Translations under genes and position numbers: made by a program
Assembly: GCA_040285825.1 (NCBI GenBank)
Contig: JAUPSS010000006.1
Coordinates: 186,001-250,000 of the forward strand
DNA from: Eukaryota sp. TZLM1-RC
Taxonomy: Eukaryota > Protista > Metamonada: BaSk clade
Direction of reading: 5' to 3'
DNA: 64,000 nucleotides
Part shown: positions 2,268 to 41,900 of the stretch, piece by piece
Numbering within the stretch: position 1 is the first letter of the stretch
How the letters are laid out: every line of letters begins with the position of its first letter
The notes under the pieces: model-generated
Seen by the model: only the letters and a program-made list of their open reading frames with translations
Databases searched by the model: none
What the model was told of the DNA's origin: nothing

Positions 2268-4892
2268 CTTTATACTCAACATCAATGAACTGCACCTCAT
2301 GTAGAGAAGCTTTTGATTCCACTCAGCGTCAACCAATGCTGATCTGTAAGGACAATCATTCAGTTTGTGCTTTGTGTGCCAAGAACCTTTTGCGTTGTAA
2401 TATTTGTAACGTTAATGCTCTGCCTCAACCAAAGAAGAACCACGGTCTTCTCAATCTTGTCATAGCGTCCAATGTCGCCAGTTTCTCTCCTGAGATCCCG
2501 TCATCTGACATCAAAATAGGATATAAGATTGGAGAAGGCGGCCAGGCTGTTGTATACGAGGGGACATGGTGTGGTGCTCCTGTTGCACTCAAAGCGGTCT
2601 CTCTTACAGAGCAAGGTGTGTCACTGCTTAAGAGAGAGGTGTCCTTCTTATCAAGATTAGCTAATCCACATATCCTCCGTGTGTTTGGATTGACCTACCT
2701 GGAAGACAAAGTAGCCATTGTCATGGAAAAGGCCTCTGGTTCATTAAACACTCCTTCAGAACTCTCTCCCATGACCCTAAAGCATGCCATTGATATCTGT
2801 AATTCCGTTGCCTATCTCCATTCTCAGAGTGCTGTTCATGGTGATATAAAGCCAGCCAACATCTTGATGCTTCATGGTGAAGTTCGAATAGGCGATTTTG
2901 GCACTTCCAGAACCATTGCCAACACAACCAAACTCCCGTCTAGCACAGCCATTACTGCCAAGTATGCTCCTCCCGAAGCTTTTGATAACGAAATCCATCC
3001 TGCTGGTGATGTTTACTCCGTTGGGGTAGTGTTATTTGAGTTACTAACAAACACCGAGGCTTTTGCTGGTTTAAATCCAATGGCGCTTTTTGGAGCGAAG
3101 ATGAATGATAGACCACTCCCCTTTCCTGCTAATGTACCTCTACTGTTGAAAGAGTTGATAACTAATTGTTGCCGTAAAGAGCCTAATGAGAGACCTTGTG
3201 TTTTCCAAGTCATCAATGTTTTGGAATCATTAAGAGATTCTTTGGGTTTAAAAATTGATCTTGTTCAAAACTCAAGGTCTAATCAAATGAAACATTGTTT
3301 ATCCAATGCTGACATTGAAAGAGCGGTTGCTCAGGCTAATGCTGCTAATGAGGATAGAATAGCTGGTCTTGAGCAACAATTAGAACAAGTTGCTGCTGAA
3401 AGAGACCAAATTGCAACTGAAAGAGACCATAATAAAGCTCAACTTGATAGGGTTAGAGCTGAAAATCAAACCTTGCAAAAACGAAATGAAGAATTATCAA
3501 GGAATTTGGAATCTGCAAAAAGGGAAATCAACAATTCAAGGAAGGTGAATGATTCCGAAGCTGTGCCACGTGTTCCTCGTAAGGCGACTCCAAGCCTTGG
3601 AACTATTCGAAGATGCCAGCTAAGTGTTCCTAGAAGAGGTTCCAGAGGTTCAAATGGTGTGGTTTTTTCAAAGGTATATAAGTATAGTAGGGTTTATGTT
3701 TCTGATGATGGTTTGATGGCTGAAGGTGGTGGTGGTGGTTACCAATCAATAAGAGGAGATAAGCCCTTGAAGCATGGTAGTGTTCATAAATGGAGGGTTA
3801 GATATGAAGGTGATAGAGGTGGTTTTGTCATTGGTGTGATTGCTGGGAAGAAGTTTGACTTTAGGTACAACAGCTCTGATGTCTATGGTTGTTGGAATGC
3901 AGGTTACCCCATCAACACCTCTGGAAAATGTACCCAATGGAAAGAAGGTGATGTAATTGAAATCACTGTTGATTTAGTTAATTACACCATTAATTTGAAG
4001 GAGGTTGGTTCAGGTTATATTGATATAAATGGTGAACTACCTAGATTAGATGGTGATTCTTATTATCCTTATTTTGCGTTGTACTACCCAAGCGACAAAT
4101 TGTATATTGTAGAGTAATTGTGTTTGATTTGTTTTATAAATCATTTTTTTAAATCATTGTTTAATTTCAATTTATCAATTCCAACAAAATGATCATATTA
4201 ATCAATGAATTGACCAAAAACTTGTTCAATTTTCAGTAGAATTGTAAATTATTCAATGCTATTTAAATAAATAAAAGTTTTGAATTAGTTTGTTTAAACA
4301 TCAACTTTACACCAATTTTAACTGAAATAAAGAAACATTTAATACACACTTTGTACAAAAATTTACTAACCTTATAAAACATAAAAAGCGACTGAACAGT
4401 TCATTGAGTGCAATATTGATAAATGAAATAAACTTGAATAGACCATTTGCCATTGCAATGATGGATGGGTTACAAAGTAGCCAATCCTGAACAAAGCTTT
4501 GTCCAGAGTAGTTTCAGCAACACAAATGGTGACAGTACATTCAAAACAACGATGTGAGATGTTGGTGGGGAGAAATGAGAAGTTAGTCTTCAATTGAAGA
4601 ATTGCCCCTCTTGTGGATAGAGTTCAACTTCGATTGATGAGGAGAAAGCAAATGAAGCAAGTGAATTGTCGAGAAGCACACCTTTGGTTTCAGAAGATGA
4701 AGTTCGTCAAAGAATCTACGAAGAAGTGGACAGTCAATTGGTAAGGGATGAATGTATCCTTGAAGATGTAGCTTCTGAGGGATTGGTTATGGAAAAAGTG
4801 TATTCTACCATGATGAAGAGGGGGAAATGTGTTCTATTTCTTGGGAATGATTGCTCTACATTAATGCTCTTTTTACCTTTTACTAATTATTT
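2268..4892. repeat. Left arm of a ~2.6 kb inverted segmental duplication (partner ~17855-20382)
   Basis: The kinase gene plus ~770 bp of 3' flank matches the reverse complement of 17855-20382. Ends are approximate. Confidence 0.88.
2285..4117 (+). CDS. RING finger - TKL-like Ser/Thr kinase - coiled coil - B30.2/SPRY protein (610 aa)
   Basis: N-terminal CxxC..CxxxHxxCxxC..CxxC RING. Kinase motifs GEGGQAVV, VALK, HGDIKPAN, DFG, YAPPE, DVYS. Heptad-rich linker. C-terminal SPRY-like IRGDKPL..KWRV..FVIGV..GDVIEITVDL..YPYF. Confidence 0.88.
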   Translation: MNCTSCREAFDSTQRQPMLICKDNHSVCALCAKNLLRCNICNVNALPQPKKNHGLLNLVIASNVASFSPEIPSSDIKIGYKIGEGGQAVVYEGTWCGAPVALKAVSLTEQGVSLLKREVSFLSRLANPHILRVFGLTYLEDKVAIVMEKASGSLNTPSELSPMTLKHAIDICNSVAYLHSQSAVHGDIKPANILMLHGEVRIGDFGTSRTIANTTKLPSSTAITAKYAPPEAFDNEIHPAGDVYSVGVVLFELLTNTEAFAGLNPMALFGAKMNDRPLPFPANVPLLLKELITNCCRKEPNERPCVFQVINVLESLRDSLGLKIDLVQNSRSNQMKHCLSNADIERAVAQANAANEDRIAGLEQQLEQVAAERDQIATERDHNKAQLDRVRAENQTLQKRNEELSRNLESAKREINNSRKVNDSEAVPRVPRKATPSLGTIRRCQLSVPRRGSRGSNGVVFSKVYKYSRVYVSDDGLMAEGGGGGYQSIRGDKPLKHGSVHKWRVRYEGDRGGFVIGVIAGKKFDFRYNSSDVYGCWNAGYPINTSGKCTQWKEGDVIEITVDLVNYTINLKEVGSGYIDINGELPRLDGDSYYPYFALYYPSDKLYIVE

Positions 4893-7662: not shown

Positions 7663-8449
7663 GGCAGTATTTTAGTTCAAAAAAATTATAGTTCATAAGA
7701 ATTAGTTTTTGAATTTTTTTTGTCAAGTTGAATAGATTACTGAGATAAATCTGAAACTTTTTTTTGAAAAAATATCCCTATTATTCTTTTTTATACAAGG
7801 CTGCTATACCATGTAGCTTACTGATTTATTAACTCATCCAAACAGTTTGGACCACATTTAAAAAATACTATGAGAAAATCTGGTTCGTTAAATCACGTTT
7901 AACGAACCTCCATTTTTTCAAAGTTTTTCCGAATCTCAAAAATTCCTTCTCAAATTTTGAACCAGAAGCATCGTATCTGACACAACATTTATCCAGCAAC
8001 AATGGTGGAAAGGGACCATCGACCACTGTCGGTATAATGCAACCTCGGTGCTTCAAGACAACAGGGGAATGAGTGATGGATGATGAGTTTTCCACAATTT
8101 TACACAAAATCGATAGGGTGGTGCCTTGGACATAAGTGAAACTTTGAATGTCATGTATTGCCAAAGTGTAAGTTGGACATACATGGAATTCCCTAAAACA
8201 TAATGAGTGATGACGTAGCAAATATTGTGATTAATTTCTGGGAAGATATCTTGAGTGTAAGTGATCTTAATGTGAAAAATGTTATGGGACAATATAGTAA
8301 ATAACCAGAAAGGTCTTTACTTCGAGATCACAGAATCGTGGGAGAGTGGAGTTTTCAACAGGACACAGATGATTTTGATGAACACATTTGAAATACCACC
8401 TTCACCTCTTCTCTCCCTTCTCTCTTCTTATTAGTTCTCCTGTTAATCA

Positions 8450-9484
8450 ATGACAGATGACTTTGAACAAGAACTTCTAGAACATCCTTTCTTTGCTCAA
8501 AGAGTTCCTGACAACATTCAAGATAATGAAGCATTCTCAGCAATGCAAGCACTTGTCTATGAAGATCCACCACCCCAAGTCTGCATCAACTTCAAAAATA
8601 ATGCAGATGATTACCTCAAAAAATACACTGAAACCAAGAAGAAACAATTTCTGAAGAATGCCCTCACTTGGTATGACAAAGCAATGACGGTAGACGGTCT
8701 CACAGAAGAAGACGAACCTACACGTGTTTTGGTGCTCGCAAATCGATGCCAAGCCCACCTTTATGCCCACAATTATCGCAGTGCATTAGCTGACGGATTA
8801 CGTGTACTCAAGTTCTCCCCAAGTCATGTCAAGGCCGCATATAGAGCAATGACCGCCGCTTTTGAGTTGAAGCAGCCTGACATTGTGGTTTCTCTTTATA
8901 ATAACATTTCAAAACATTGTACGTCTTTACCTAAAAGCTTGCATACATTATATCAAAAGGCATCTGTGCTAGAACAACAATTACAAAAGAAACGAGAATA
9001 TGAGCAGCAACAAATACAAATAAAAGAACAAAAACTACAACAATATGAGGACTTATTGGAACGTCATGGGGTTTTAATAGGTCCTTCTCTGGTAAATATC
9101 GCTGATGATTGCGTTTCTAACACGGATCTGCCGTTTTGGGAGCAAGATGGCCAGCTTTTCGGCAAGATATTACTCTTCTTTCCAGAGTTTAATACATCTG
9201 ATCTGTTAAAGGAGGTTTGCTTTGATGCCAGTTGTGAGGACATTCTATCCCACGTGTTTGAAGTTCCTCTCTCCAACGAGTACACTTTTGATAACGTAGA
9301 TCTATACTACCGTCAGTCAAACAATGAGCAGCAGATCTGGTCAGGGGATTGGATCAAGATACCCAGGAGCATGGAGTTGAGGAAGCTCGTGGGAAGGCGA
9401 AAGTACAAGTATATCTGCCCTAAAGTTTGCTCCTTCTTTGTTTTTGTTACTGGTGGTGAATTTGCACGTAGATTTATGCAATAG
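8450..9484 (+). CDS. TTC4: TPR co-chaperone of the Cns1/TTC4 family
   Basis: HPFF..AMQALVYE N-terminus, three TPRs (FKNNADD, LANRCQAH, NYRSALAD, HVKAAYRA) and a wheel-domain-like LFFPEFNTSDL. Confidence 0.9.
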   Translation: MTDDFEQELLEHPFFAQRVPDNIQDNEAFSAMQALVYEDPPPQVCINFKNNADDYLKKYTETKKKQFLKNALTWYDKAMTVDGLTEEDEPTRVLVLANRCQAHLYAHNYRSALADGLRVLKFSPSHVKAAYRAMTAAFELKQPDIVVSLYNNISKHCTSLPKSLHTLYQKASVLEQQLQKKREYEQQQIQIKEQKLQQYEDLLERHGVLIGPSLVNIADDCVSNTDLPFWEQDGQLFGKILLFFPEFNTSDLLKEVCFDASCEDILSHVFEVPLSNEYTFDNVDLYYRQSNNEQQIWSGDWIKIPRSMELRKLVGRRKYKYICPKVCSFFVFVTGGEFARRFMQ

Positions 9485-10204: not shown

Positions 10205-10699
10205 CTAATATTCATCATCAATATTGTCATCATTATTATTGTTCTCAAGAGCAACATTACTTTTGCAGTCTTCAATAACATTCATTATATGGCTAGGGTT
10301 GTTGATGTAATGCATCTTGGAACGAATAAAGGCTTTGGCACGAGCCATGGAGAACCTCCTCATGCGGTCCCCAAGTGAGTCGATCATGCTTATACAGGCA
10401 TCAAATTTGGCTTGGTTGGGGTCAAAGACAGCGCGTTTGAGGAGATCAAACATAAATTCAGTGACGGCGGGCTTTGATTGATGGGCCAGGAAGTAAACGA
10501 AAACCAACTTGAGAATGGAGTAGAAAGGCAGCCAGCTGATTAGCAAATCAGCAAACTTTTGGACAACAAGCAAGATGGAAAAGCAGACCCAGTACTTCAA
10601 CCAACGTTGCTGATCATCAGTGTTGTTGTTTTTGATGGACTTGAAGGTAACGTAAGCGGGACTGAGAAGACCGATGTAGAGGAGGATCAGTGAAAGCAT
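10205..10699 (-). CDS. TB2/DP1/HVA22 (REEP/Yop1) family membrane protein
   Basis: PAYVTFKSI..DDQQRWLKYWV..ISWLPFYSILKL signature. Start placed at the ATG of MLSLILL. Confidence 0.9.
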   Translation of the reverse strand: MLSLILLYIGLLSPAYVTFKSIKNNNTDDQQRWLKYWVCFSILLVVQKFADLLISWLPFYSILKLVFVYFLAHQSKPAVTEFMFDLLKRAVFDPNQAKFDACISMIDSLGDRMRRFSMARAKAFIRSKMHYINNPSHIMNVIEDCKSNVALENNNNDDNIDDEY

Positions 10700-11415
10700 G
10701 GGAATAGATTCAATGCAAAGCAAAGTTGTTTGTTATCAAATCAAGATCTATTGGGGACAGCGATCTATTTGTGACATACAGACCACCTCATTGCATAGCA
10801 GCTTTCTGACATTGAATCCATCGTTCATTATACATGTCAATGAGACTCCTTTGTTTATTAACACAATAATTAATCTCAATGTCGATCCAGAAGTCTGAAG
10901 AATGACTATTTCAAAACCTATAGCAGTTCGTCAAACTCAATCACAAAAAAGGTTACGTTTGAAACGGTAATGCTGAAACAATTATGGTATTCAACAAAAT
11001 AAATAATCAATAAGTTCTATTAGTATAATAAATATGAATCGTTTCCAAGAGCTTGTTGCCTTCCAACTAAGAAAGGCGCAGAAAATTCTCCTATTTATAG
11101 TTTTTATTGTTAGCACCTTTAAAATCTTTATGATGGTCGCACTCACCGCATTTCAAAAAATTGAATCAAATTATTTATTGACACGACACGAAACCATTTG
11201 ACGAAATTAATTTCTTTGTTTCCTACACATGGGAATATCATTAATTTAACCAGTTAGTCATTGTGATTTCAAAACTTTCAGCAGAAATGTTTTTTGAGAT
11301 AAAGTTTGACAAGAATGTTCAAGAAGATAAATTAAAGCAATTTTATTTTTAAATAATACAATAAATATACAAAATAACCACAATAAACCAATAAAATCTT
11401 ACAAAATATAATAAA

Positions 11416-13593
11416 TCATCGTCGTGGACTAACACCTTTTCCATGGAACCTATAAACGTTGGTAACTGGCTCCTCATTACCAGACAAGAGCTGTAGTATG
11501 GCCTCTCGCCGTTCAGCTCTATGGGGGGAAGATAAGGAGGAAGGGAGTGATGAGTTGCGTAGTCTAGCAGTGCTCCTTGCAGAGTAGCTATCAGAAGGAT
11601 CAGGTGCAGGGCTGAGTTTGGAAAGATCCATTGACAGATTGACAAGCTTCTGTTCGGGAAGATGAACAGGAGTCTTCTCACCAGCAGAAACCGGACGTTT
11701 GTAGGTACGTCTACCAGAGCGTGGGGTTAGTCCTGGGCGTGGAGTAACATCACAATGATGATCACCCACTGAGAATTCCCTACAGGAGGAGCAATAGTTT
11801 GGTGTCTTGCTCGTTGACTCTACTTGAGGTGAACCTGTAGATGAGTACAATGGTGACACCTGAGTCCACTGGCCTCCAGGTGTGATAGCTGCAGAAAAAG
11901 ACTTTGTAGCATCGTTTGCCTGCGGAGTACAACGATAGGCAAAAGGACGAGGCGTCATATTGTTTCTCGGTGTTTTTGTTGTAAAAGTAGAACGTGCTGC
12001 CGGCATTGGATCAAGAAGTAGTCTAACAGCAGATAAGACTGCTTCTAACTGTCTCCTCCTCTCTCTTTCCAATGCAGCCCTTCTGCGTGATATCTTATCC
12101 AACATGTCCTTTGCCCTAGCTTCGAGTCTATCAAATACCTCAAGCTGTTCCATATTTTTATGTTGTTTTTGATGCGGTGAAGGTAAAAGATCAGTGTGTG
12201 TGAGGTCAGTACGCAGATTACCAGTAGAAGACACCACGTCTTCCATTGGCAGAGTTGACTTAAATTTAACAGAAGATTCTCTCAACCTCATCGCCTCCTT
12301 TTCCTGCTCTGCTAGTTCCCTATCTGTTTCTCTTAGCTTTGTGGTTGTCTCTACAATGTTCTGAGTTGCTGACACAAGATCTTTTTCCTTTTTCTGAATA
12401 TCATCATATACTTCCTCACTATACTCAATTTCTTTCCTAAAGATTGGAGATGTTTCTCTATGTTGTGTCGGGGTTACGTCGGGTTCTGGTAATGGTGTTC
12501 TTGGCTTGTTAACCTGTTCTACTAGCTGCTTATTCTCTTGACGTAAGGCCTCCGTCTCTGTTTTGGCTTGGGTGAGGAGAGATTCGAGTTGTGTAATGCG
12601 TTCTGATTCCAAGTTGCTTGAACTTTGACTGTCAGCCAGCTTCTTCTCGAGTTCTTCAATTCTGGCATTAAGGTCAGAATTAGTGCTTTCAAGCTCAGAA
12701 ACTCGTTGACCCTCGACTCTACCTTCCTTTTCAAGCAATTGTTTTTCCTCTTGTAGTTTTTGAATTTTCTGTTCAAGCTCAACAGTGGCACTATCATCAT
12801 TGAATTCCTCTTCAAGTTTGTTATATTTGGTCTCCAAAGTCTTGTAACTTGCCTGTAAATGTGAAAGTTCAGCTTCGAGTCTTCCTGTTTCCAGTTCTTT
12901 TTGATCTTTGAGCTTGTCTATTTGAGCATTAAGATTAGATATTTGGGATAAATAGTCTTCTACATTTTGTTTTAATTCACCATTTTCCCGTTCTTTTTCA
13001 TCTAATTTTCCCTCTAGTTCGGCAATTTCCCTACTATATTGGTCAACTTTGGTAATGTTGGACTCCAATTTTTCCTTTAATCGACCATTTTCAGCTTCCA
13101 TTTCATCAAATTGATCGGATAATTGACTGTAATCCTGAGTTTTTGATTGTTCTTTTTTGAGACTGACTTCCAAGGAATTCGTCTTATTTTGAGCTGTCTT
13201 GAGTTCAGCATCCTTTTCCTTCAATGAACCGCTAAGTTTGGTGCAGTGTTCAATGTATTTGGATAGCTGCTGTTGGAGGTCCTTTTCTTTCTCTTGTGCC
13301 AATTTTTCCATTTCCTTTGTCTTCTCCTCCATGGCTTTGGCAATGGCTTCACGGAACTGACGTTGGATATCATCAGCATCACCATCGACTGTGGGAGCGA
13401 ATTCAGGGAGTTGATCAGGTTCATATCCAGGCCCAAGGCGAGCTTTTTGGAAGAGCATTTCTTTCAGAGCGATGAGTTGTTTGTAAAAGTCCGTCCGTTG
13501 TTCAGACATCATTTTGGTACGTCGTGCAAGTTGGTTTTTTAGAAAGTCTATTTGGACTTGGGGGTCATCAGGAAGAGAGGATGTCTGATGCAT
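11416..13593 (-). CDS. Long coiled-coil protein with S/T/P-rich disordered tail (725 aa), function unknown
   Basis: Uninterrupted 2.2 kb ORF with E/K/Q/L heptads and many TP/SP sites. Confidence 0.8.
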   Translation of the reverse strand: MHQTSSLPDDPQVQIDFLKNQLARRTKMMSEQRTDFYKQLIALKEMLFQKARLGPGYEPDQLPEFAPTVDGDADDIQRQFREAIAKAMEEKTKEMEKLAQEKEKDLQQQLSKYIEHCTKLSGSLKEKDAELKTAQNKTNSLEVSLKKEQSKTQDYSQLSDQFDEMEAENGRLKEKLESNITKVDQYSREIAELEGKLDEKERENGELKQNVEDYLSQISNLNAQIDKLKDQKELETGRLEAELSHLQASYKTLETKYNKLEEEFNDDSATVELEQKIQKLQEEKQLLEKEGRVEGQRVSELESTNSDLNARIEELEKKLADSQSSSNLESERITQLESLLTQAKTETEALRQENKQLVEQVNKPRTPLPEPDVTPTQHRETSPIFRKEIEYSEEVYDDIQKKEKDLVSATQNIVETTTKLRETDRELAEQEKEAMRLRESSVKFKSTLPMEDVVSSTGNLRTDLTHTDLLPSPHQKQHKNMEQLEVFDRLEARAKDMLDKISRRRAALERERRRQLEAVLSAVRLLLDPMPAARSTFTTKTPRNNMTPRPFAYRCTPQANDATKSFSAAITPGGQWTQVSPLYSSTGSPQVESTSKTPNYCSSCREFSVGDHHCDVTPRPGLTPRSGRRTYKRPVSAGEKTPVHLPEQKLVNLSMDLSKLSPAPDPSDSYSARSTARLRNSSLPSSLSSPHRAERREAILQLLSGNEEPVTNVYRFHGKGVSPRR

Positions 13594-13993
13594 GATAGAG
13601 GAAGAGAAGAGATGACGGGGGTGTGAGGTTGAGTATGTTGGTGATCCAGAATTCTTTTATCTTCATTCATCTTGATTCATCTTCTTTTATCTGATATCAC
13701 GGTGCAGGGCTCTGTTCCACGCAAATCTAAATAAAATGGTACTGCATTGTCGTTGTGTTCTAGGATATATCATTTTTGTACACTTTATACTCAAAAAGAT
13801 TATTACAACCAAATGTTTTCTCAATTGTTTATTCAAATCGAACAAAACCCCACTTGCCTTCTTAAATTATTTGAACATTCAGCCATTTTTCATCCTATAA
13901 ATTGTTCTTTTGCGATGTAACAACCTTATCATCAAATATCTACATCCTGATGTACGTAAGCAAACTTGCGAAATCTGTGACCAACCACTACAG

Positions 13994-15653: not shown

Positions 15654-17460
15654 GTTTTTTTTTAAAATTTAATTTTATTCTAAACCTATAAATCAACATC
15701 TAAAAAATCCATCTCTCCCAAAACAAAAACACTAGATGCAACTCTCTCATAGTGAGATCCAAGAGAAAGCAAAACATCAGAAACCATCTTCAACATCCCC
15801 TTAAAAATAGAAAACACAATTCTATTTTGCCAAAACAATCTGTTGAAATTTCTGCCAGTTCTTCTCTTTACAATCAATTCAAAATCATCCAAAAAACGTA
15901 AAGCAGTTGGTGCAATTGAACCAAAAAGGGAAAATACAAATGGATACAAATTGTATTTTGCATGCTGTAGACTGGCCAATTTGGACAAAGGTTCATTGTA
16001 TTTTTTGAATTTAAAATTTTCAGCATTTGAAAGGGGATTATGAATTTCAGAATTAACAAGCCTTTCATTTGAGGCATTACAAGGATCAACAGACATTACA
16101 TCCAATAAAATGAAGCTTCCATCTAATCCAGGTAATATGACATCACCTCTATTATTCTTATGAAAATCATTTTCAGCATCAAACAGATTTGACAACAGAG
16201 GTTCCAAGAAGGATTCAATTCTAGGAGATTTACACATACAATATAACTGGTCTCTTACAGCATCATGAACCTTGCTTCTAAAAGTAATAAAATGTTTACA
16301 ATTTAACAAATGAGTAGTTGTAATTTCTCGAGAACATTTACAAATTAAATTATGAGGTAAATTATCAGGCCAGATAAAGGAACGAAATCTCATATTCAGA
16401 GTCCAAGCAGAATCGGATAAGAGAGTACCATAAACTTGTGGAATTGTTGTTACTAAGGCAGAAGAAGTACTGTCACACATATCTTGTAAAAAGATTTGCA
16501 AAAGCGGGATTCTTTTTTCTTGGCCAAGCCAAGTCTAACATCAAAATCCAAGCTTTCAAAAATCTTTGACAATTTTTGTTGAAGCTTTTTACAGCAAAAC
16601 TGTAAATTAAACAGAGATCGGTTTGGAATTTCTTGAATTGATTGAGGAAAACATTTGGTCCAAATTTGTGGCGGTAATTTTTCAAGTTCACAAGATAACT
16701 CATACAAATAGGGACTACAATTGGGGACTAACAGATGAGAATCATCAGGAAATCTACGAGAAAATTCATAAATAAAATTTTTGCCACCACCCAAGAATGC
16801 TGATTGACACAAAATTGAAGATTTAGTAAAACCAATACCACCCAAATTTGCTGAAGAAAATAAATGGCTTTTCAACATTCCTGGTTCTACATCCAATAAA
16901 TCAGCAAAAAATTCTGTTCTCAATGAATTAAAAGAACGACAAAAATCTAATGCTATGGAAGGATCACAAGGTCTCAAAATGTGGGTTATTCTCCCAGTGT
17001 AGCAAATTTTAAGCATGAAAAATTTAATATGCTTTTCTATATCTAAAGAAGAAATTGAATCAAGTTCAATTTTCATTTTTTCCAAAATAACTTGCAATTC
17101 ATTCTGAATTTGAGGCACATTTCCTAACCAACAACCAAGGAACTTAAAAGCATCACTACTATAATTAGTAAAAGGGACAATAGAATCGTTTATCACGAGG
17201 TCTTGAGCAGAAGAGCCAATCAGAAGGCATTTGCTGGCATTAAGATGAAGCCCAATATTTTCATATGAATCGGCAATTTCTTGAGCAACCAATTCTAGTA
17301 AATCAAATGAACCAATCAAGGATATATCATCCATATAAACAACTATTTTTATAGAAGGGTATTTTTGCTTAATGATATTTAAAGTTTTGTGAATAGCTAA
17401 ACAAAACAATAATGGGCCTAAAGGATCTCCCTGCTTCACTCCAGAAGATGATTTAAGATT
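15654..17460 (-). mobile_element. 5'-truncated CRE-like non-LTR retrotransposon (RT + CCHC + restriction-like endonuclease), one frameshift near 16510
   Basis: RT motifs GVKQGDPLGPLLF, YMDD, FLG and GGIG. CKC..HLLNC..HD, RGDV..LDV..K..KY. A-run just 3' of the stop codon. Confidence 0.9.
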
Positions 17461-18538
17461 GTTTTTCAGATGATAATTTACGTATAATTTTATTAAAACA
17501 TACTTTATTAACAAAACTGTTTCAATTGATTTAGAAAATCGTTACTGATATTGTTTAATAATGTAGCTCCTGATTACGCTATTCTAAATCAACGCTTCAG
17601 TTGATCAATAAAGCGAAATAATGAGATTAGAGTTGCATGATTATTTCACATTGTGGCAAATTGCACAACATAGGTAGTGAATCAAGGTACTGAATTTGTG
17701 ACGAAACCTCAGCAGACCGCTTCTCGATTGACCAAATTATGCAACCACTAATGCTTGGAGAGTTCAAAATTGAATGAAGATCACCATCCAATACTTTTAA
17801 TGTCAGTTTTTGCATTCTTTGAAAGGATAAGTTAGGAACATGTAGTGGAATCAAAATAATTAGTAAAAGGTAAAAAGTGCATCAATGTAGACCAATCATT
17901 CCCAAGAAATAGAAAACATTTCCCCCTCTACATCATGGCATAATACACTGAATAACCAATCCTCAGAAGCTACATCTTCAAGTATACATTCATCCCTTAC
18001 CAATTGATTGTCCACTTCTTCGTAGATTCTTTCACAAACTTCATCTTCTGAAACCAAGGGTGTGCTTCTCTACAATTCACTTGCTTCATTTGCTTTCTCC
18101 TCATCAATCGAAGTCGAACTCTATCCACAAGAGGGGCAATTCTTCAACTGAAGACTAACTTTTCATTCCTCCCCACCAACATCACACATCGTTTTTTGAA
18201 TGTATTGTCACCATTTGTGTTACTGACACTACTCTGGACAAAGCTTTGTTCAGGTTTCACTCGCTTTTTATGTTTTATAAGGTTGATAAATTTTTGTACA
18301 AAGTGTGCAATAAATGTTCCTTTATTTCAGTTAAAATTGGTGTAAAGTTGATGTTTAATTCAACTAATTCAAAACTTTTATCTATTTGAAAATCATTGAC
18401 TCATTTACAATTCCACTGAAAATTGAACAAGTTTGTGTTCAAACGTTTGATTAAAATAATCATTTTGTTGGAATTGGTGAAAATTGAAATTAAACAATGA
18501 TTGAAAAAAAAATGATTTATAAAACAAATCAAACACAA

Positions 18539-20365
18539 TTACTCTACAATATACAATTTTTGATCTGGGTATAACAAACTACAGTAAGGATAATAAGAAT
18601 CACCATCTAATCTAGGTAATTCACCATTGAAATCAATATAACCTGAACCAACCTCCTTCAAATTAATGGTGTAATTAACTAAATCAACAGTGATTTCAAT
18701 TACATCACCTTCTTCCCATTTGGTACAGGTTCCTGATGTGTTGAGGGGAATACCACCATTAAAACAACCATAGACATCAAAGCTACTGATCCTAGAAGAG
18801 TAAAACTTCTTCCCAGCAATAACACCAATAACAAGACCCTGATTACCACCCTGATTACCACCTTGATAACTAACCCTCCATTTATGAACACTACCATGCT
18901 TCAAGGGTTCATCTCCTCTTATTGGTTGGACAAGACCACCACCACTTTTAGCCATCAAACCATCACAAGAAACAGAAACCACATCATTCTTACATTCCTT
19001 GGAAAAAACCACACCATTTGAACCTCTGGAACCTCTTCTGGGAACACTTGGCTGGCATCTTCGAATAGTTCCAAGGCTTGGGACCGCCTTACGAGGAACA
19101 CGTGGCACAGCTTGGGAATCATTCCCCTTCCTTGAATTGTTGATTTCCCTTTTTGCAGCATCCAAATTCCTTGATAATTCTTCATTTCGTTTTTACAAGG
19201 TTTGATTTTCAGCTCTAACCCTATCAAGTTGAGCTTTATTCTGGTTATTTTCAGCAGCAACTTCTTCTAATTGTTGCTCAAGACCAGCTATTCTATCCTC
19301 ATTAGCAGCATTAGCTTGAGCAACCGCTCTTTCAATGTCAGCATTGGATAAACAATGGTTCATTTGATTAGACCTTGAACTTTGAACAAGTTCAACTTCT
19401 AAAGCCAAAGAATCTCGTAATGATTCCAAAACATTGATGACTTGGAAAACACAAGGTCTCTCATTAGGCTCTTTACGACAACAATTAGTTATCAATTCTT
19501 TCAACGGTAGAGGTACATTAGCAGGAAAGGGGAGTGGTTTATCATTCATCTTCGCTCCAAAAAGCGCCATTGGATTCAAACCAGCAAAAGCCTCGGTATT
19601 TGTTAGTAACTCGAATAACACTACCCCTATGGAGTAAACATCACCAGCAGGATGGATTTCGTTATCAAAAGCTTCGGGAGGAGCATACTTGGCAGTAATG
19701 GCTGTGCTAGACGGGAGTTTGGTTGTGTTGGCAATGGTTCTAGAAGTGCCAAAATCTCCTATTCGAACTTCACCATGAAGTATCAAGATGTTGGCTGGCT
19801 TTATATCACCATGAACAGCACTCTGAGAGTGGAGATATGCAACGGAATTACAGATATCAATGGCATGCTTTAGGGTCATGGCAGAGAGTTTGGAAGGAGT
19901 GTTTAATGAACCAGAGGCCTTTTCCATGACAATGGCTACTTTGTCTTCCAGGTAGGTCAATCCAAACACACGGAGGATATGTGGATTAGCTAATCTTGAT
20001 AAGAAGGACACCTCTCTCTTAAGCAGTGACACACCTTCCTCTGTAAGGGAGACAGCTTTGAGGGCAACAGGAGCACCACACCAAGTCCCCTCGTATACAA
20101 CAGCCTGACCGCCTTCTCCGATCTTGCGTCCTATTTTGATGTCAGATGACGGGATCTCAGGAGAGAAACTGCCGACATTGGACGCTATGACAAGATTGAG
20201 AAGACTATGATTCTTTTTGGATTGGGGTAGAGCATTAGCGTTACAAATATTACAGTGCAAAAGGTTCTTGGCACACAAAGCACATACTGAATGATTGTCC
20301 TTACAGATCAGCATTGGTTGACACTGAGTGGAATCAAAAGCTTCTCTACATGAGATGCAGTTCAT
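18539..20365 (-). pseudogene. Paralogue of the RING-kinase-CC-SPRY gene with one in-frame TAA (19193-19195)
   Basis: Colinear with 2285-4117. ACC TTG TAA AAA versus ACC TTG CAA AAA, with the downstream ORF in the same frame. One 7-aa deletion in the coiled coil. Confidence 0.85.
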
Positions 20366-34501: not shown

Positions 34502-35605
34502 TGTTGTTGTTGAACTCAAATTGAATTAGTAGGTTTCTTTGTATTTCGACTGATGACGTGATACTCATTTATGAATCAGTTTTATTAATAAACAACAGAT
34601 TTCTCTCTCTCCTTCGTGTGTTCATCTGCCTAACGGCATCAATAATTATTGGCCCTTCTTATTTCAGATGACTGTTCTTTCTGTCAACCTCCCGTCTCTT
34701 TCTTCCATGAAAGTTGAAAGTGTTCTCTTGTTCCTACAAGAGTGGAAGATCTATTCTTCTGTGACTTCTAAGAAAGAGCTTGTTCCAGCAAGACTCTTGG
34801 TCGATTCTTTTCTGTTTGAGTCCCTATCTCTCCAGAAATCCGACGTCTCTTCCAGTGACGATGTTCTTCTTAGACATCTACAATCTGTCGTATCGTTCGC
34901 CACGTACGAAGATTTTAGTCTGGCTATGTCAGAACTGAAGCTTGATGTCCGTATTGGTGACGTCCGAGAACGTATGTCCTGTTACCTGCGACGTTTCCTC
35001 CAGGTAAAGAGTAGGGCTTCCGGACTGAAGTTACCAGACACAGCTTTTCTGAATCGATTTACCAGAGGAATTCTTCCCGTAGGTCTTCAACGTTCTCTAC
35101 TAGCGAGAATTCGAGATGATGTATTCCCAGATCTTCACTCTCTTGTCGAAACCACTACTGATGAGCTGTTGGACTGCTCTAGGGTTGCTTCATGGACTCG
35201 TGGTTTCAAAACCTCAGTGAATGATGTGGAACGTACGGCTGGCACTAAAACGAGGTCCTCTTGGCGCACTCAGGATTTAAAAAATCAATCGTGCTTCAAG
35301 TGCCACAAGCCTGGACACATCTCCCGCGATTGTCCATCTAAAATCAAAACATGAGGTAAATTATTTGTGTCACACAAACGATGCACCAAAGAGTTTAACA
35401 AACCCCATATCTTCCCTCTATTGAGCCAATACTGTATTTGTCCTCAGAAAAGTGGGAAAAAGTAGTGTTGTTGTTGAACTCAAATTGAATTAGTAGGTTT
35501 CTTTGTATTTCGACTGATGACGTGATACTCATTTATGAATCAGTTTTATTAATAAACAACAGATTTCTCTCTCTCCTTCGTGTGTTCATCTGCCTAACGG
35601 CATCA
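34502..35605 (+). mobile_element. Gag-only (TR-GAG-like) LTR retrotransposon, 1104 bp
   Basis: Identical 140-bp TG..CA LTRs (34502-34641 and 35466-35605). TSD ATTT (34498-34501 and 35606-35609). PPT AGAAAAGTGGGAAAAAGTAG. Empty site CCTCC-ATTT-AATC at ~44922-44934. Confidence 0.93.
34668..35354 (+). CDS. gag: Gag-like protein with a C-terminal CCHC zinc knuckle (228 aa)
   Basis: CFKCHKPGHISRDC. Intact ORF filling the space between the LTRs. Confidence 0.85.
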   Translation: MTVLSVNLPSLSSMKVESVLLFLQEWKIYSSVTSKKELVPARLLVDSFLFESLSLQKSDVSSSDDVLLRHLQSVVSFATYEDFSLAMSELKLDVRIGDVRERMSCYLRRFLQVKSRASGLKLPDTAFLNRFTRGILPVGLQRSLLARIRDDVFPDLHSLVETTTDELLDCSRVASWTRGFKTSVNDVERTAGTKTRSSWRTQDLKNQSCFKCHKPGHISRDCPSKIKT

Positions 35606-38324
35606 ATTTAATCTAGTTGAGATTGAATTTCTTCATACTCTCCTGGTGGGGACTACGTGTCTATGGTGGGATTTCCATCCGTTCCCTCTGAGACAGGTTC
35701 TACATTTGGGAAGGGAGAGGGAGCCGGGTCCGTTACCACGTAAGCCTCTTCGTTATGTGTATGTGTGTATGTTGCTGGTTCCTGTCGCTGCATGTTAGGT
35801 GAGGAATTGGGGTCAGAGATATCTTGTTGAAAGATGTCTGACATGCGGTAAAGGTTTTTGAAAGGTGTTTACTAGTAAAGTGCTGGAGTTATTATACCTT
35901 TTGCTTCTAATGTTGCGAATAATTATTGTTGACTAAAGTCTATTGTAGTAAAGAAAAGTCTGATTTATTTTTTATTCATATTATATAAGCCTTAGGGCGC
36001 CAACACTGCTTCTTCCCTTTTTCAAAATAAATCAACTTATATGAATATGAAACAAAACTATAAACAAAAAACGAAATAACTATAAACAATCTAAATAAAC
36101 TAAGAATTAGCTTCGCTTCCTAATTCTATTACTACGTCTAGGCCTCTTAAAGGGTGTAGACTCATTGGAGGTACCTTGATGTCGACTAGTGTTACGTTTT
36201 CCAATTTTCTTGTTATCCTTACTAAATAACTGATAAGCTTCTGAATGTTCAATCAAATGGAGAGGCTCTTCTGTTGTTCTACCGCAGAACCATTGAACAG
36301 TACAGAAACCACCTGAATCAGAGCTATATTCTGTATTTGAGATATTCAATATCCTGTGGATTTTCTGCGTTATAGATTTTAGAATCTTTCTTGGCAGCTT
36401 TTAATTCTGTGCCAGTAGTAAGATTCTTCAATGATAAAGTGGATTTGAAAGGAAGGTCAATGACAAAGAATGGTCCATTCCAAGATCCATGCAATTTATT
36501 ATTTTGCTTGGTTTTACGTAAGACGTAGTCACCAATATTGAAAACTATAAAACACGAATTAGTATTATCTACTGAAGACGGAGTATTAAATTTTTGGTGA
36601 CGCTCTGCTTCTTCCCTTTTTTCTTGTAGACGAGTATTTTTTATTTTGATGTCATCCAATAAAAGGATATTAGTTTTAAATTTGGATAAATTTCCAGAGG
36701 AATTCTTCCCGTAGGTCTTCAACGTTCTCTACTAGCGAGAATTCGAGATGATGTATTCCCAGATCTTCACTCTCTTGTCGAAACCACTACTGATGAGCTG
36801 TTGGACTGCTCTAGGGTTGCTTCATGGACTCGTGGTTTCAAAACCTCAGTGAATGATGTGGAACGTACGGCTGGCACTAAAACGAGGTCCTCTTGGCGCA
36901 CTCAGGATTTAAAAAATCAATCGTGCTTCAAGTGCCACAAGCCTGGACACATCTCCCGCGATTGTCCATCTAAAATCAAAACATGAGGTAAATTATTTGT
37001 GTCACACAAACGATGCACCAAAGAGTTTAACAAACCCCATATCTTCCCTCTATTGAGCCAATACTGTATTTGTCCTCAGAAAAGTGGGAAAAAGTAGTGT
37101 TGTTGTTGAACTCAAATTGAATTAGTAGGTTTCTTTGTATTTCGACTGATGACGTGATACTCATTTATGAATCAGTTTTATTAATAAACAACAGATTTCT
37201 CTCTCTCCTTCGTGTGTTCATCTGCCTAACGGCATCAATTTAATCTAGTTGAGATTGAATTTCTTCATACTCTCCTGGTGGGGACTACGTGTCTATGGTG
37301 GGATTTCCATCCGTTCCCTCTGAGACAGGTTCTACATTTGGGAAGGGAGAGGGAGCCGGGTCCGTTACCACGTAAGCCTCTTCGTTATGTGTATGTGTGT
37401 ATGTTGCTGGTTCCTGTCGCTGCATGTTAGGTGAGGAATTGGGGTCAGAGATATCTTGTTGAAAGATGTCTGACATGCGGTAAAGGTTTTTGAAAGGTGT
37501 TTACTAGTAAAGTGCTGGAGTTATTATACCTTTTGCTTCTAATGTTGCGAATAATTATTGTTGACTAAAGTCTATTGTAGTAAAGAAAAGTCTGATTTAT
37601 TTTTTATTCATATTATATAAGCCTTAGGGCGCCAACACTGCTTCTTCCCTTTTCAAAATAAATCAACTTATATGAATATGAAACAAAACTATAAACAAAA
37701 AACGAAATAACTATAAACAATCTAAATAAACTAAGAATTAGCTTCGCTTCCTAATTCTATTACTACGTCTAGGCCTCTTAAAGGGTGTAGACTCATTGGA
37801 GGTACCTTGATGTCGACTAGTGTTACGTTTTCCAATTTTCTTGTTATCCTTACTAAATAACTGATAAGCTTCTGAATGTTCAATCAAATGGAGAGGCTCT
37901 TCTGTTGTTCTACCGCAGAACCATTGAACAGTACAGAAACCACCTGAATCAGAGCTATATTCTGTATTTGAGATATTCAATATCCTGTGGATTTTCTGCG
38001 TTATAGATTTTAGAATCTTTCTTGGCAGCTTTTAATTCTGTGCCAGTAGTAAGATTCTTCAATGATAAAGTGGATTTGAAAGGAAGGTCAATGACAAAGA
38101 ATGGTCCATTCCAAGATCCATGCAATTTATTATTTTGCTTGGTTTTACGTAAGACGTAGTCACCAATATTGAAAACTATAAAACACGAATTAGTATTATC
38201 TACTGAAGACGGAGTATTAAATTTTTGGTGACGCTCTGCTTCTTCCCTTTTTTCTTGTAGACGAGTATTTTTTATTTTGATGTCATCCAATAAAAGGATA
38301 TTAGTTTTAAATTTGGATAAATTT
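35062..38324. repeat. 1632-bp head-to-tail duplication (35062-36693 / 36694-38324)
   Basis: ORFs recur at +1632/+1631. Junction microhomology ATTT(A)CC. The duplication creates a third 140-bp LTR at 37098-37237. Confidence 0.92.
35927..36005 (-). mobile_element. 79-bp LTR (also 37559-37637 and 45246-45324)
   Basis: TGTTG...CAACA termini, PPT GAAAAAGGGAAGAAGCAG before it, ATAATTATT after it. Confidence 0.8.
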
Positions 38325-38930
38325 CCTCATATATTGGCATGGTCTGTTCTTGGACTAATCGAAGAACCAAACATAAGTTTGTACGGGGTAACCAGTTTTT
38401 TTGCTTTTAGTAGAATTTATCAATAGTTGGGATATAGGTATTTAAGGAGACCAATTTCCGTAGTCATTAAAATCTATTAATAGTTTCCTTAAGCATTGAA
38501 GAACGTTTCTCTGTTTACATTGTACAAGTCCATTACTTTCTGAATAGTGGGGAATTGAGTTACTCATCTCAATCGCTAATCTCTTACACGCCATTTTGAA
38601 AGCCTCAATGGCGAACTCGGGACCATTATCACTATGAATTAACATATGTATGCCAAACAATTGCGCAAACGTTCCAAATCAAAGCATCTGTGGTTTCCAA
38701 GGCATTGAGTTCTTTTAGAGGGACTAAAATTGTATATCCAGTAAAAGAGTCTACTATTACTAATAAATATTTATTTCCTTCGTTGTCAGCGTTCAGAGGT
38801 CCAATTGTATCGACGTTTAATCTGGCAACTGGACGATCTGCCCATAGAGATCCTGTGAAAGGTGTTTTTGACAAATTGGGGTTCTTGCTTCCCTCGAAAA
38901 CATCCACGACCAATGCATGTTGGTTCTTGT
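37738..38930 (-). mobile_element. Frameshifted Ty3/Gypsy integrase + GPY/F + chromodomain-like tail
   Basis: VDTIGPL..YLLVIVDSFT, IHSDNGPEF, SNGLV, WNGPF and VQW..TTEEP..I. Confidence 0.88.
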
Positions 38931-41900
38931 AACATTGTTTTGTGAATTATTTATACATCATTAGAACTAATTCATTTTTCTTTTTTTTAAATTACACATT
39001 CTTTTGTTCTAACAGTATAACCTTCTGACAATAGCAGTGGATTCCAAAGAAAAGGGATTGGTGGTAAGCGACAATAAAGATAACTTAAAGTTGAGAGGTG
39101 TATTACCAATTACAATTTTAAGAAGACGGTTGATTCGGATTAATAGAATAAAACAGTTTAATTCAAAAATCAATACAGACAAAAATTAAAACAGAGACCA
39201 GAATTAATGAATTTAAGTGGGAGATCTGATTTAACATAAAAATTATCAATCAGACAAAGAAATGAGAATATAGGAAGCTTGTAAGTACCTGTCTTTATTT
39301 AATATGTAGAAATTGTCATTGGTTATAAGGTCCACTGATCACTGACAAATAGCAATATGGTCAATGAATCCATGAAGGACACTAGATTTGCGTTCACCAA
39401 ATCATGAATTCAAAATCGAAAACTGAAGTTTACAATTGGGTTCGTCTTTTCTAATGAATAATTTTAAAGAATTTATATGCACTATTGGATGAAATTTAAT
39501 TTTTTTTGCCAACCCAATCGATCGGAAATTTGAAACAGAACAACTGTAAACATTAGAGATATTCTTTCAAGATATCCTCTGAAACCTTACCAACCCAACT
39601 CGCCTTATGCTTGGTTTAGTTCTTGCACTTTATCTGCTTTCTTTACGTCACTTTACATCACCTTGTTCTTCTAACGGTGTCTGTCGTTCTACACCATCCT
39701 CCTACGTGAATGCTGTTGTGAAAACTTTAGTCATTTCTCTTTTCTTTTGAACTACTGACATCACTCTAAGTCGTCTCATTTTTGTGATCTCATGAATTAT
39801 CCTTTCTTTCACTCCATTCACTCCTCACCGACCCTATATTCTCAGTTGGTGAACATGGAATCTTATATTTTGCATTCCGTGAATGTTACTTCATTAAACT
39901 TTATCCATTCATGTAAAGGGGTCAATACATGGAAAGTTGGGTTGGTTAATTTTTGGTCGTTCATGAGACTCGAACCTGGAACCTAGGCGAATTCAGTTAT
40001 TCTGTTTTAACTGTTTAAGTTCTTAAATTAAAGCTGGTTTATTGGTCATAATCAGCTGTCCTTTTTCTTTTTTGCTGATATTTCACTTTTCTTCTTGTAG
40101 TTTTTTTATGTATATGGACCATTTTGGTTTTCAAATTTATTTTGATAACCTATGTAAATTCAATCATTCAACAACCCATATTTCAACCATGAATTTAAAA
40201 TAAATCATTGATTAATGTACATGACTCAAGGTTGGTTCTCACTAATGTTAAAACTCTAGGTTCAGTTGATTCTAATGGTAATGATGTAAGTAGATGTGTT
40301 ATTATTGAGATTTTTACACTTGCTGATTCTCATGTTGATTTCGGTAATGTAGTTGTTGGTTGTGAATTCAATCTATTCTTACCACTGATGCCAATGTTGG
40401 GCACGACTGATGATGAATTTAAAAATGTTGAAAGCAAAGTTTTTGATTTCAGGAGTGAACTCCTTGTCAAAAACACCAAATTTTGACTAAATTATATCAC
40501 TACTGATAATGATTGTTGTCGCCAGATTGCTGATTCAACTATTGATTTAGTGAGTGTGTCTGCTACTTATGGTTATTTTTTACTAACCAAAATTAATTTG
40601 ATTATGATTAATGCTATGTTTCTGAAATACATTTTAATTTAAATTCAATGGTGACATATGGTAAATTTGTTTAAATATTGTGTTTTATGGTGTGAGTTTA
40701 TTTGAATTTTTACCTTTGTGTTTTTTGCTGATTTTTGTTTACTACCTTTTTATTGGAGTCTCTATCAAATATTGAAAGTAATTCTCTTTATTTTGAGTCT
40801 CTATTTATAAATACATAAACAACCGAGTAATCATCAGTCATTCAGTTTGTAATTGTTTGAAGTTGATTACGGTCAAGAAAGATCTGATTACATGTGTCTG
40901 TATAGTCTACATGTTATTGGATCTTTGTAGGTTTAATACTTACAGCAACTTCAGTTATGAATTAATTTGAGGGTTTCTTTTTTTACCTCAACATGATTAA
41001 TTCATTTTTTTCTATTATTTATTTTTACATTTAAGATAGGTTCAATAATGAGATGACTAAAGCAGCATCGATCTTTTGAATTTCTTCCTTTGCTGTCATA
41101 TTCCCTTTTCTAAAGATTATCAATTTTCTCAAAAAATATATTCTTCCATTTTTTTTTCACAAAACTACAGCACTTCTAAACTTCTGCTTGCTCAGCAGCT
41201 GGAAAGTTAATTTGAGGGTTAAAACAAGGCTTAACATAAAAAAGATACTTTTTCAAGAAATTGTTGCTCACAGATGTATTTTCGTACATATCTTGCTCGT
41301 ACAAGCTGCTTGAATCCAAATCATTCTGATTGTCCTTCTTAATCAAAGTTTGGTTAAAAAGATAAAATATTCAAGCCAGATTGAAAGATTGTTGCCGCAG
41401 ACTCAATCAAATTTTGGTTATCTTCATTTTCCTCGGAACAACAGGCACATTAAACCTCAGTGACCTACAGGAAATCTTTGAAGGAGATTCAAGATAAACT
41501 TACATGCATTTAATAAAAAGAATCTTTCTCTTGAATTATTCAGATTGAAATTGATGTAGTGTTCGAGAACAGAATCAGCAACTACTTCTTCGGGTTGGGC
41601 TAATGGTTCATCTGGCAAAAGAGAGAGAGGATAATTTGCACAGACATTCGTTTTATCTAGAGCTCTACAATGAGCACGAATAAAATTTTTTGTCCAGGAT
41701 TGACAAGTTTTAGGTAGACTTGTCTTCACGTTAGACGCTAATTGACGAGCCCGACAAGCAAGGTAAGGAAAAAGCCCTTTTGTATTGATGAAATTACGTT
41801 TCTGAAACTGCAGCCAAGCATTGAGAAAAAGATTGAAGGAATTTCTATAAGGCACTAAACAATTTTCCCATGAAGAAACAAGAGACCTGTCTTGTTGATG

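What the first reader, a model, noticed from the sequence alone, without database searches (positions are those of the whole stretch)
3650..4117. TRIM-like RING-kinase-coiled-coil-SPRY receptor pair with a hypervariable SPRY domain
Seen: the two paralogues differ at 8 of ~245 kinase residues but at roughly 33 of ~150 SPRY codons plus indels, with only ~7 synonymous changes there (hand count). Changes cluster in patches: VYKYSRVY/ECKNDVVS, GDRGGF/GGNQGGNQGL, DFRYNSS/YSSRISSF, WNAGY/FNGGI, FALYYPSD/CSLLYPDQ. They often alter codon positions 1+2 and keep position 3 (agt/gat, tac/gtc, ggt/ctt). Known: animal TRIM5/TRIM21-type proteins use RING-CC-SPRY with rapidly evolving SPRY loops to recognise foreign ligands. 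Inference: this may be a protist innate-immune receptor family with a kinase in place of the B-box, possibly sensing the abundant retroelement or viral proteins.
Basis: partly seen in the sequence, partly recalled or inferred. Interest (0 to 1): 0.75.

Follow-up and report, generated by a model that had tools for sequence, protein, structure and literature searches.

The report
Swappable variable SPRY sensor in protist
A free-living protist has two copies of a gene (one interrupted by a stop codon) that joins a RING-kinase signalling module to a fast-varying SPRY binding domain shared with TRIM-type genes, which likely makes it part of a mix-and-match receptor repertoire that would resemble vertebrate antiviral TRIMs; no ligand is known.

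Summary
The two inverted copies differ at 8 of 239 kinase residues and 37 of 154 SPRY codons. The changes are clustered, and synonymous divergence is flat along the gene, so kinase conversion does not explain them. (1) Copy B has an in-frame TAA in the coiled coil. (2) Whole-SPRY dN/dS is only about 1; the excess sits in 26 sites that also vary in four TRIM relatives (omega about 9 at the gene-wide rate, but not separable from local exchange). (3) The gene is a chimera: its RING-kinase-coil half is 77% identical to a RING-kinase-LRR protein, and its SPRY is 68-79% identical to RING-B-box-B-box-SPRY (TRIM-type) proteins of Skoliomonas litria. Related SPRYs in skoliomonads sit on BTB, B-box, RING, kinase and MLKL-like modules, and trees show kinase-SPRY fusions arising repeatedly. 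So A and B are not TRIMs; they are non-RD TKL-like kinases carrying a TRIM-clade SPRY. Best reading (0.55): a variable-sensor receptor for foreign proteins, coupled to ubiquitin and kinase outputs. Ligand, expression and immune role are untested.

The parts
2285..4117 (+). Gene A, intact intronless 610-aa RING-kinase-coiled coil-SPRY
   Evidence: ORF; held letter for letter in the protein collection; model domains
2291..2407 (+). A: RING-HC (C3HC4 spacing), aa 3-41
   Evidence: Spacing regex; Sina_RING E 0.01; weak PDB hit to TRIM32 RING E 0.04; relative P0026 Sina_RING E 1.3e-6
2510..3226 (+). A: TKL-like non-RD kinase (GEGGQAVV, VALK, HGDIKPAN, DFG), aa 76-314, under purifying selection
   Evidence: Pkinase E 1.6e-39; nearest solved MLK1/MLK4/TAK1; motifs; omega 0.15
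3305..3541 (+). A: coiled coil aa 341-419, predicted parallel in-register dimer
   Evidence: One 79-residue helix; self-pair score 0.51 against best control 0.00 with i:i contacts
3542..3652 (+). A: low-confidence basic linker aa 420-456; homology to the LRR relative ends near aa 431 and homology to the TRIMs starts at aa 458, so the fusion joint lies here
3653..4114 (+). A: SPRY/B30.2-fold domain aa 457-610; variable patches at about aa 464-474, 480-488, 506-514, 525-531, 537-553 and 596-604; invariant stretch aa 554-580 between A and B
   Evidence: Fold Z 15.8/15.5, rmsd 2.7, 141-143 aligned to HERC1 and TRIM67 SPRY; site table
18539..20365 (-). Gene B, inverted paralogue of A, same layout but interrupted
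19193..19195 (-). B: in-frame TAA at codon 391 (CAA, Q398, in A) inside the coiled coil; gives a 390-aa RING-kinase-partial coil
   Evidence: not covered by the one public run laid, so unverified
18542..19018 (-). B: SPRY domain, still open and without frameshift; annotated from an internal Met (18955) as a 138-aa protein
2271..4396 (+). Duplicated unit (matches 20379-18256 at 91%; a further block 4483-4892 matches 18257-17854)
   Evidence: blastn

Best explanation
Gene A encodes a RING, a non-RD kinase, a coiled coil predicted to form a parallel dimer and a SPRY domain whose sequence varies in patches, and it likely works as a cytosolic receptor whose SPRY binds a changing foreign protein and switches on ubiquitin and kinase signalling. 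Shown: the domain layout; purifying selection on RING-kinase and on the SPRY scaffold; patch-wise SPRY divergence at sites that also vary in four TRIM-type relatives; separate ancestry of the two halves (kinase sister to a RING-kinase-LRR gene, SPRY inside a TRIM SPRY clade); repeated pairing of this SPRY family with different N-terminal modules in skoliomonads. Predicted: the parallel dimer holds two RINGs and kinases at one end and two tethered SPRYs at the other. Inferred: the variable patches form the ligand face; binding a multivalent ligand clusters dimers and activates RING ligase and kinase output; SPRY and LRR are interchangeable sensors; variation comes from diversifying selection plus exchange among paralogues; B is a recently truncated copy in a birth-and-death family. 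The ligand is unknown (virus, intracellular bacterium, prey protein or mobile element).
For: SPRY 68-79% identical to four RING-B-box-B-box-SPRY proteins. RING-kinase-coil 77% identical over 438 columns to RING-kinase-LRR P0007. Kinase-SPRY genes rejected as one clade in the kinase tree (AU p=1.5e-4, 17 rows) and the SPRY tree (p=2.4e-7, 27 rows). A and B differ at 16 of 26 sites that have 3 or more states in the TRIMs, against 9 of 94 TRIM-invariant sites (p=1.4e-7). Omega is 9.3 at those 26 sites at a shared synonymous rate (LRT 40.3) and 0.39 at the 94 scaffold sites (p=0.003). Fourfold-site divergence in SPRY is 5 of 49, like the rest of the gene (0.10) and the 3' flank (0.09). Among the four TRIMs, SPRY is 73% identical against 96-97% for RING and B-box 2. 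The variability profile recurs in a separate 16-sequence SPRY clade, 10 of them named GEM-RC1 (rho 0.52). Self-pair score 0.51 against best control 0.00; runs agree in at least 70% of contacts, pLDDT at least 76; the mark was reached by 17 of 29 eukaryote proteins solved as homo-pairs and 0 of 30 monomers, and coiled coils may pass from memory. [quoted passage not shown] One related SPRY sits behind an MLKL_N-like match plus kinase and B-box (P0037).
Against: Whole-SPRY omega is not above 1. When the 26 sites get their own divergence time, omega falls to 2.7 and is not significant (p=0.17), so import of older segments fits as well. Adjacent double substitutions are in excess even in the 3' flank (6 against 2.3 expected) and in RING-kinase (5 against 1.9), which can inflate omega. 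Only two DNA sequences were available. B carries a stop. 16 of the 37 differing sites are in predicted strands (counted), and solvent exposure could not be computed. The non-RD motif is shared by the whole local kinase family, including DUSP and Hsp70 fusions, so it does not single out these genes. B-box 1 also varies among the TRIMs (75%). No ligand, expression or phenotype data exist.
Confidence: 0.55

Rival explanations
1. The SPRY family is a set of substrate adaptors for ubiquitin ligases (RING, B-box and BTB fusions) that target the cell's own proteins. Paralogues diverge on the exposed binding face as they take on or lose host substrates, with no non-self recognition.
For: The commonest N-terminal partner is BTB (10 of 59 scanned hits carry PF00651; 5 more). 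The nearest solved SPRYs include housekeeping ligase subunits (HERC1, RanBP9/10, SPSB). Whole-domain omega is about 1.
Against: Very young paralogues (dS about 0.1) already differ at 16 of 26 hypervariable sites with radical changes and in-frame indels. Expansions are lineage-specific and shuffle repeatedly, which fits an arms race better than stable host substrates (inference).
Confidence: 0.25
2. The patches are mosaics made by gene conversion or recombination among neighbouring SPRY paralogues, with little selection for novelty; the kinase fusion is a by-product of a repeat-rich, shuffling-prone region.
For: A local-time model with omega=1 fits the 26 sites almost as well. A shares 6 informative residues with TRIM P0001 where B matches P0003, and 0 go the other way (p=0.03, one of six quartets, uncorrected). 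The window is rich in repeats and element fragments. B is interrupted.
Against: Exchange alone does not explain why the same positions vary in a distant clade of about 35% identity, nor why scaffold and kinase stay constrained. Exchange and selection can act together, as in zebrafish finTRIMs (PMC2657112, passages).
Confidence: 0.13
3. B's SPRY has been decaying neutrally since the stop arose, and this produces the apparent SPRY hypervariability.
For: The in-frame TAA lies upstream of B's SPRY, and whole-domain omega is about 1.
Against: Differences are clustered. Scaffold omega is 0.39. Polarised against the TRIMs, A and B carry equal numbers of private states (13 and 13). There are no frameshifts. 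The four intact TRIMs vary at the same sites.
Confidence: 0.04

Closest known systems
Vertebrate class IV / group 2 TRIMs (TRIM5, TRIM21, fish finTRIMs)
   Same: N-terminal RING, central coiled coil and C-terminal SPRY-fold domain with variation concentrated in patches; expansion by duplication. finTRIMs also show positive selection, recombination and B30.2 shuffling with NLRs (PMC2657112, abstract and passages).
   Different: A and B have no B-box and carry a kinase; the coil is predicted parallel (TRIM coils are antiparallel, PMC8251876 passages); SPRY identity to solved TRIM PRYSPRYs is only 10-16%. Sardiello 2008 (PMC2533329, passages) calls the tripartite motif exclusive to metazoans, and Marin 2012 (PMC3503706, abstract and passages) finds only the MATH-type subfamily A outside animals.
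Skoliomonad RING-B-box-B-box-SPRY proteins (P0001-P0004, KAL0209799/795/988/779; P0040)
   Same: Same SPRY clade (100/99) and same variable sites.
   Different: Different N-terminal half. They are annotated only as hypothetical proteins.
Skoliomonad RING-kinase-coil-LRR protein P0007 (P9112_010329)
   Same: 77% identical over the RING, kinase and coil; sister in the kinase tree (100/100).
   Different: LRR_6 repeats in place of SPRY.
Non-RD immune kinases (IRAK/Pelle, RIPK, plant XA21/EFR) and MLK/TAK1-type TKL kinases
   Same: HxD without Arg; nearest solved kinases are MLK1/4, TAK1, MST3 and CTR1.
   Different: No orthology shown; sensor, kinase and RING are in one cytosolic chain. The IRAK/RIPK resemblance is recalled and from search listings, not tested.
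Nematode SPRYSEC effectors
   Same: Lineage-specific SPRY expansion with a hypervariable, positively selected binding surface (PMC5071358, passages); SS15 is the top Foldseek and profile hit.
   Different: SPRYSECs are secreted single-domain parasite effectors; these are fused to intracellular ligase and kinase modules in a free-living bacterivore.

Membership tests
TRIM/RBCC (genes A, B) | N-terminal RING | tested here: met
   C3HC4 spacing aa 3-41, pLDDT about 80; Pfam weak
TRIM/RBCC (genes A, B) | One or two B-boxes after the RING | tested here: not met
   No B-box match at E<=1; the kinase follows the RING. A and B are therefore not filed as TRIMs.
TRIM/RBCC (genes A, B) | Antiparallel coiled-coil dimer | tested here: inconclusive
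   Coil present; the model pairs residues in register, that is parallel; prediction only
TRIM/RBCC (relatives P0001-P0004) | RING plus B-boxes | tested here: met
   zf-C3HC4 and two zf-B_box stretches above Pfam cut-offs in 4 of 4; hits to TRIM72, 25, 21 and 5 N-termini
TRIM/RBCC (relatives P0001-P0004) | Coiled coil after the B-boxes | tested here: inconclusive
   Only a short heptad signal near aa 170-200 of P0001 by a rough score of my own; not modelled
SPRY/B30.2 domain | SPRY beta-sandwich fold | tested here: met
   Model pLDDT 82; Z 15.8, rmsd 2.7, 141 aligned; the top 33 rows are all SPRY-bearing entries by their titles; Atlas features 0.97 to SPRY clusters
SPRY/B30.2 domain | Variable sites form one exposed ligand surface (v1-v4 loops) | tested here: inconclusive
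   Sites cluster in sequence and alternate along strands; no coordinates for accessibility. The match to v1-v4 rests on recalled topology.
Positively selected restriction-factor type SPRY | Site class with omega>1 robust to recombination | tested here: inconclusive
   omega 9.3 with shared rate, 2.7 (p=0.17) with free local rate; two sequences only
TKL-like non-RD protein kinase | Gly loop, VAxK, HxD without Arg, DFG | tested here: met
Innate immune receptor | Binds a non-self ligand and triggers a defence output | not testable with these tools
   No ligand, expression or phenotype data

The most novel reading that the evidence does not exclude
Skoliomonads, far from animals, independently built a plug-and-play intracellular immune repertoire: dozens of hypervariable SPRY sensors (and LRRs) are swapped among RING-B-box (TRIM), RING-kinase, BTB and MLKL-like-kinase outputs, with specificity patches traded between paralogues, converging on the TRIM5/finTRIM/NLR-B30.2 strategy of vertebrates.
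Probability: 0.35. Interest if true: 0.85.

Novelty: new variant of a known kind. Interest (0 to 1): 0.62.

Why it matters
Little is known about how free-living protists recognise intracellular invaders. The two TRIM surveys I read in passages treat SPRY-bearing TRIMs as animal-specific. A cultivable metamonad lineage with TRIM-type RING-B-box-SPRY genes, a RING-kinase-SPRY chimera and the same patch-wise variation offers a direct test of whether the TRIM5-style sensor design evolved more than once. The few hypervariable sites give ready swaps for finding ligands. If the adaptor rival is right, it is still an unusual case of rapid domain shuffling, but of narrower interest.

Tried and rejected
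No whole genome is held for the window, so no DNA of other paralogues and no family-wide site models. The metagenome scan found no relative among 148 pattern matches. No RNA holder was listed; this says nothing on expression. The one DNA run (X1, share 0.08) gave short contigs that do not cover B's stop. Earlier findings of the scan: none. Rejected: TAA read as Gln (both genes end in TAA, and long ORFs such as 8447-9484 and 11416-13656 are open under the standard code); recent conversion of the kinase (synonymous divergence is flat); B-only decay; a special codon-position mechanism (24/24/22 by position; 27 transitions and 40 transversions). The first SPRY tree (64 rows) fell back to the quick method; the careful tree used 27 chosen rows. 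Of 64 hits, 59 were scanned with Pfam; P0002 was scanned earlier, four long repeat proteins were left out, and P0031 and P0058 look like spurious repeat matches. The Atlas top rows showed no RING-kinase-SPRY cluster, which shows no absence. Paper searches for this architecture or family in protists and for Skoliomonas listed nothing describing it; the library lacks most subscription papers, and I read no supplements (those of the bioRxiv genome paper are closed and could list these families).

Full report
Observation. Gene A runs 2285-4117 (+, 610 aa, one ORF). Its paralogue B runs 20365-18539 (-). The duplicated unit is about 2.1 kb at 91% identity, with a further shared 3' block. Codon comparison gives 6 of 60 differing residues in the RING region (omega 0.18), 8 of 239 in the kinase (0.15), 15 of 133 in coil and linker (0.84), and 37 of 155 in SPRY (dN 0.168, dS 0.167). 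B, however, has TAA at codon 391 (19193-19195) where A has CAA. The collection lists B as 390-aa and 138-aa products. The one public run laid does not cover the site, so the stop is unverified.

Anatomy. Residues 3-41 have RING-HC spacing, also found in six relatives. The kinase has all catalytic motifs, with HGD in place of HRD, and is nearest to MLK/TAK1-type solved kinases. The full model shows one helix at 341-419 and a low-confidence linker. Two copies of 335-610 fold as a parallel in-register coil: score 0.51, best control 0.00, runs agree in at least 70% of contacts, pLDDT at least 76. The mark was reached by 17 of 29 eukaryote homo-pairs and 0 of 30 monomers, and a pass may be from memory. 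The C-terminal domain, nearly invisible to Pfam, models at pLDDT 82 and matches SPRY/PRYSPRY structures (HERC1 Z 15.8, TRIM67 Z 15.5, rmsd 2.7; Foldseek).

Where the halves come from. A search with the C-terminal part found four proteins of Eukaryota sp. TZLM1-RC, the type isolate of the metamonad Skoliomonas litria (PMC11603281, passages). All four have RING plus two B-boxes above Pfam cut-offs, and their SPRY is 68-79% identical to A's. A search with the N-terminal part found P0007, a RING-kinase-coil-LRR protein 77% identical over 438 columns. The collection gives the same longest-contig length for these five proteins and the window's own, which suggests linkage. In the kinase tree A and B are sister to P0007 (100/100), and the six kinase-SPRY genes are rejected as one clade (AU p=1.5e-4). 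In the SPRY tree A and B lie with the four TRIMs (100/99), and the same six are rejected again (p=2.4e-7). So A and B are a chimera, and the same layout arose separately in GEM-RC1 (P0026, P0065, P0080). The trees give no direction of transfer.

The wider family. The profile search returned 64 representatives. Of 59 scanned, 10 carry BTB (PF00651), 3 BTB_2, 4 a kinase and 4 a B-box match, and one combines an MLKL_N match (score 29, cut-off 27), kinase, B-box and SPRY. Of 20 names looked up, 12 are GEM-RC1, 4 TZLM1-RC, 1 is the window's own, 1 is Gocevia fonbrunei, 1 an MMETSP transcript and 1 an unnamed ENA record. One search added six more GEM-RC1 members. SPRY clades mix N-terminal modules, for example B-box, RING-only and BTB in one 100/99 clade. 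Similar pairings exist elsewhere: the Atlas lists a B-box plus SPRY cluster (27% B-box, one member recorded as Heterolobosea) and BTB-SPRY clusters in nematodes and Mucoromycota. The parts are therefore not unique to skoliomonads.

Is the SPRY under diversifying selection? Over the whole domain, not demonstrably: omega is 1.15 (p=0.52). To avoid circularity I classed sites by the four TRIM proteins alone. A and B differ at 16 of 26 sites with three or more TRIM states, 12 of 34 with two, and 9 of 94 invariant ones (p=1.4e-7). A pairwise GY94 fit with one synonymous rate gives omega 9.3, 1.6 and 0.39 for these classes; the first is above 1 (LRT 40.3) and the last below 1 (p=0.003). Fourfold sites in SPRY differ at 5 of 49, like the rest of the gene and the 3' flank, so the kinase was not recently homogenised. 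Decay of B is unlikely, as private states are 13 and 13. Against this: with a free local divergence time omega is 2.7 and not significant (p=0.17), and multi-base mutations are common even in the flank. A resembles TRIM P0001 and B resembles P0003 at 6 sites to 0 (p=0.03, uncorrected over six quartets), a hint of patch exchange. The same positions are variable in a separate clade of 16 SPRYs (rho 0.52, 146 columns; alignment uncertain in one loop). Of the 37 differing sites, 16 lie in predicted strands, often at alternate residues, which would fit one sheet face; exposure was not computed. Conclusion: a constrained scaffold with a recurrently diversified set of sites; positive selection is likely but not separated from exchange.

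Mechanism. Shown: layout, constraint pattern, chimerism, repeated shuffling. Predicted: parallel dimer. Inferred: the SPRY patches bind a ligand that changes fast; multivalent binding clusters dimers and turns on RING ligase and kinase output; SPRY and LRR are alternative sensors on one module; B is a recently truncated copy. This rests on known TRIM logic (RING activity depends on self-association, PMC8251876 passages; variable loops form the ligand surface, PMC2657112 passages) and on the link between non-RD kinases and immunity (PMC8463890 passages). That last point is weak here, since the whole local kinase family is non-RD. I put 0.55 on non-self recognition, 0.25 on host-substrate adaptors, 0.13 on exchange with little selection and 0.04 on decay.

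Comparison and novelty. A and B work like TRIM-SPRY sensors but are not TRIMs (no B-box). Their relatives P0001-P0004 meet the RING and B-box tests; their coil is inconclusive. Sardiello 2008 calls the tripartite motif exclusive to metazoans (PMC2533329, passages), and Marin 2012 finds only MATH-type TRIMs outside animals (PMC3503706, abstract and passages). My searches listed no paper on SPRY TRIMs or RING-kinase-SPRY proteins in metamonads; the library is partial and no supplements were read. I rate it a new variant of a known kind, interest 0.62.

Noticed in passing
window:21054-21578 (+): TnpB/Fanzor-like fragment (Cas12f1-like_TNB, E 8e-6, at the Pfam cut-off) about 700 bp upstream of gene B.
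   Followed up: partly
window:15686-17541 (-); 54634-55326 (+): Broken non-LTR-type retroelement: RVT_1 match at 16453-17541 with a downstream ORF that resembles the one at 54634 by eye; lies between genes A and B.
   Followed up: partly
window:34575-35354 (+); 35059-51026: Gag-like ORF with a zinc knuckle inside nested repeats, including a 6.1-kb direct duplication at 97% (37235-43325 and 44924-51026) and a 1.6-kb tandem at 99.9%; the last could be an assembly artefact.
   Followed up: no
window:22956-23126 (+): Degenerate RING-like remnant similar to the TRIM RING of P0001 (32% over 60 aa, E 1e-5 within the window); no Pfam match. May be a dead TRIM copy.
   Followed up: partly
P0037 (KAL0226209.1): MLKL_N-like domain, RD kinase, B-box, SPRY and a hydrophobic C-terminus in one skoliomonad protein; a candidate cell-death receptor.
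   Followed up: no
P0007-P0014: The same non-RD kinase family is fused to LRR, UBA, DUSP, Hsp70 and ephrin-receptor-like/TM modules, which points to a highly mobile kinase cassette.
   Followed up: partly
run X1 laid on window:2200-4400: Short contigs match SPRY and coil parts but continue with letters unlike A or B; by eye one fits P0003 and others fit no stored protein, hinting at further copies or alleles (depth 2-4, weak).
   Followed up: no
window:8447-9484 (+), 10205-10732 (-), 11416-13656 (-): Ordinary genes between the copies: TTC4/Cns1-like (Wheel), HVA22/REEP-like, and a long coiled-coil protein.
   Followed up: no
window:31792-33668 and 43578-44096 (-): Repeated ORF fragments of an unidentified element, no Pfam match.
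   Followed up: no
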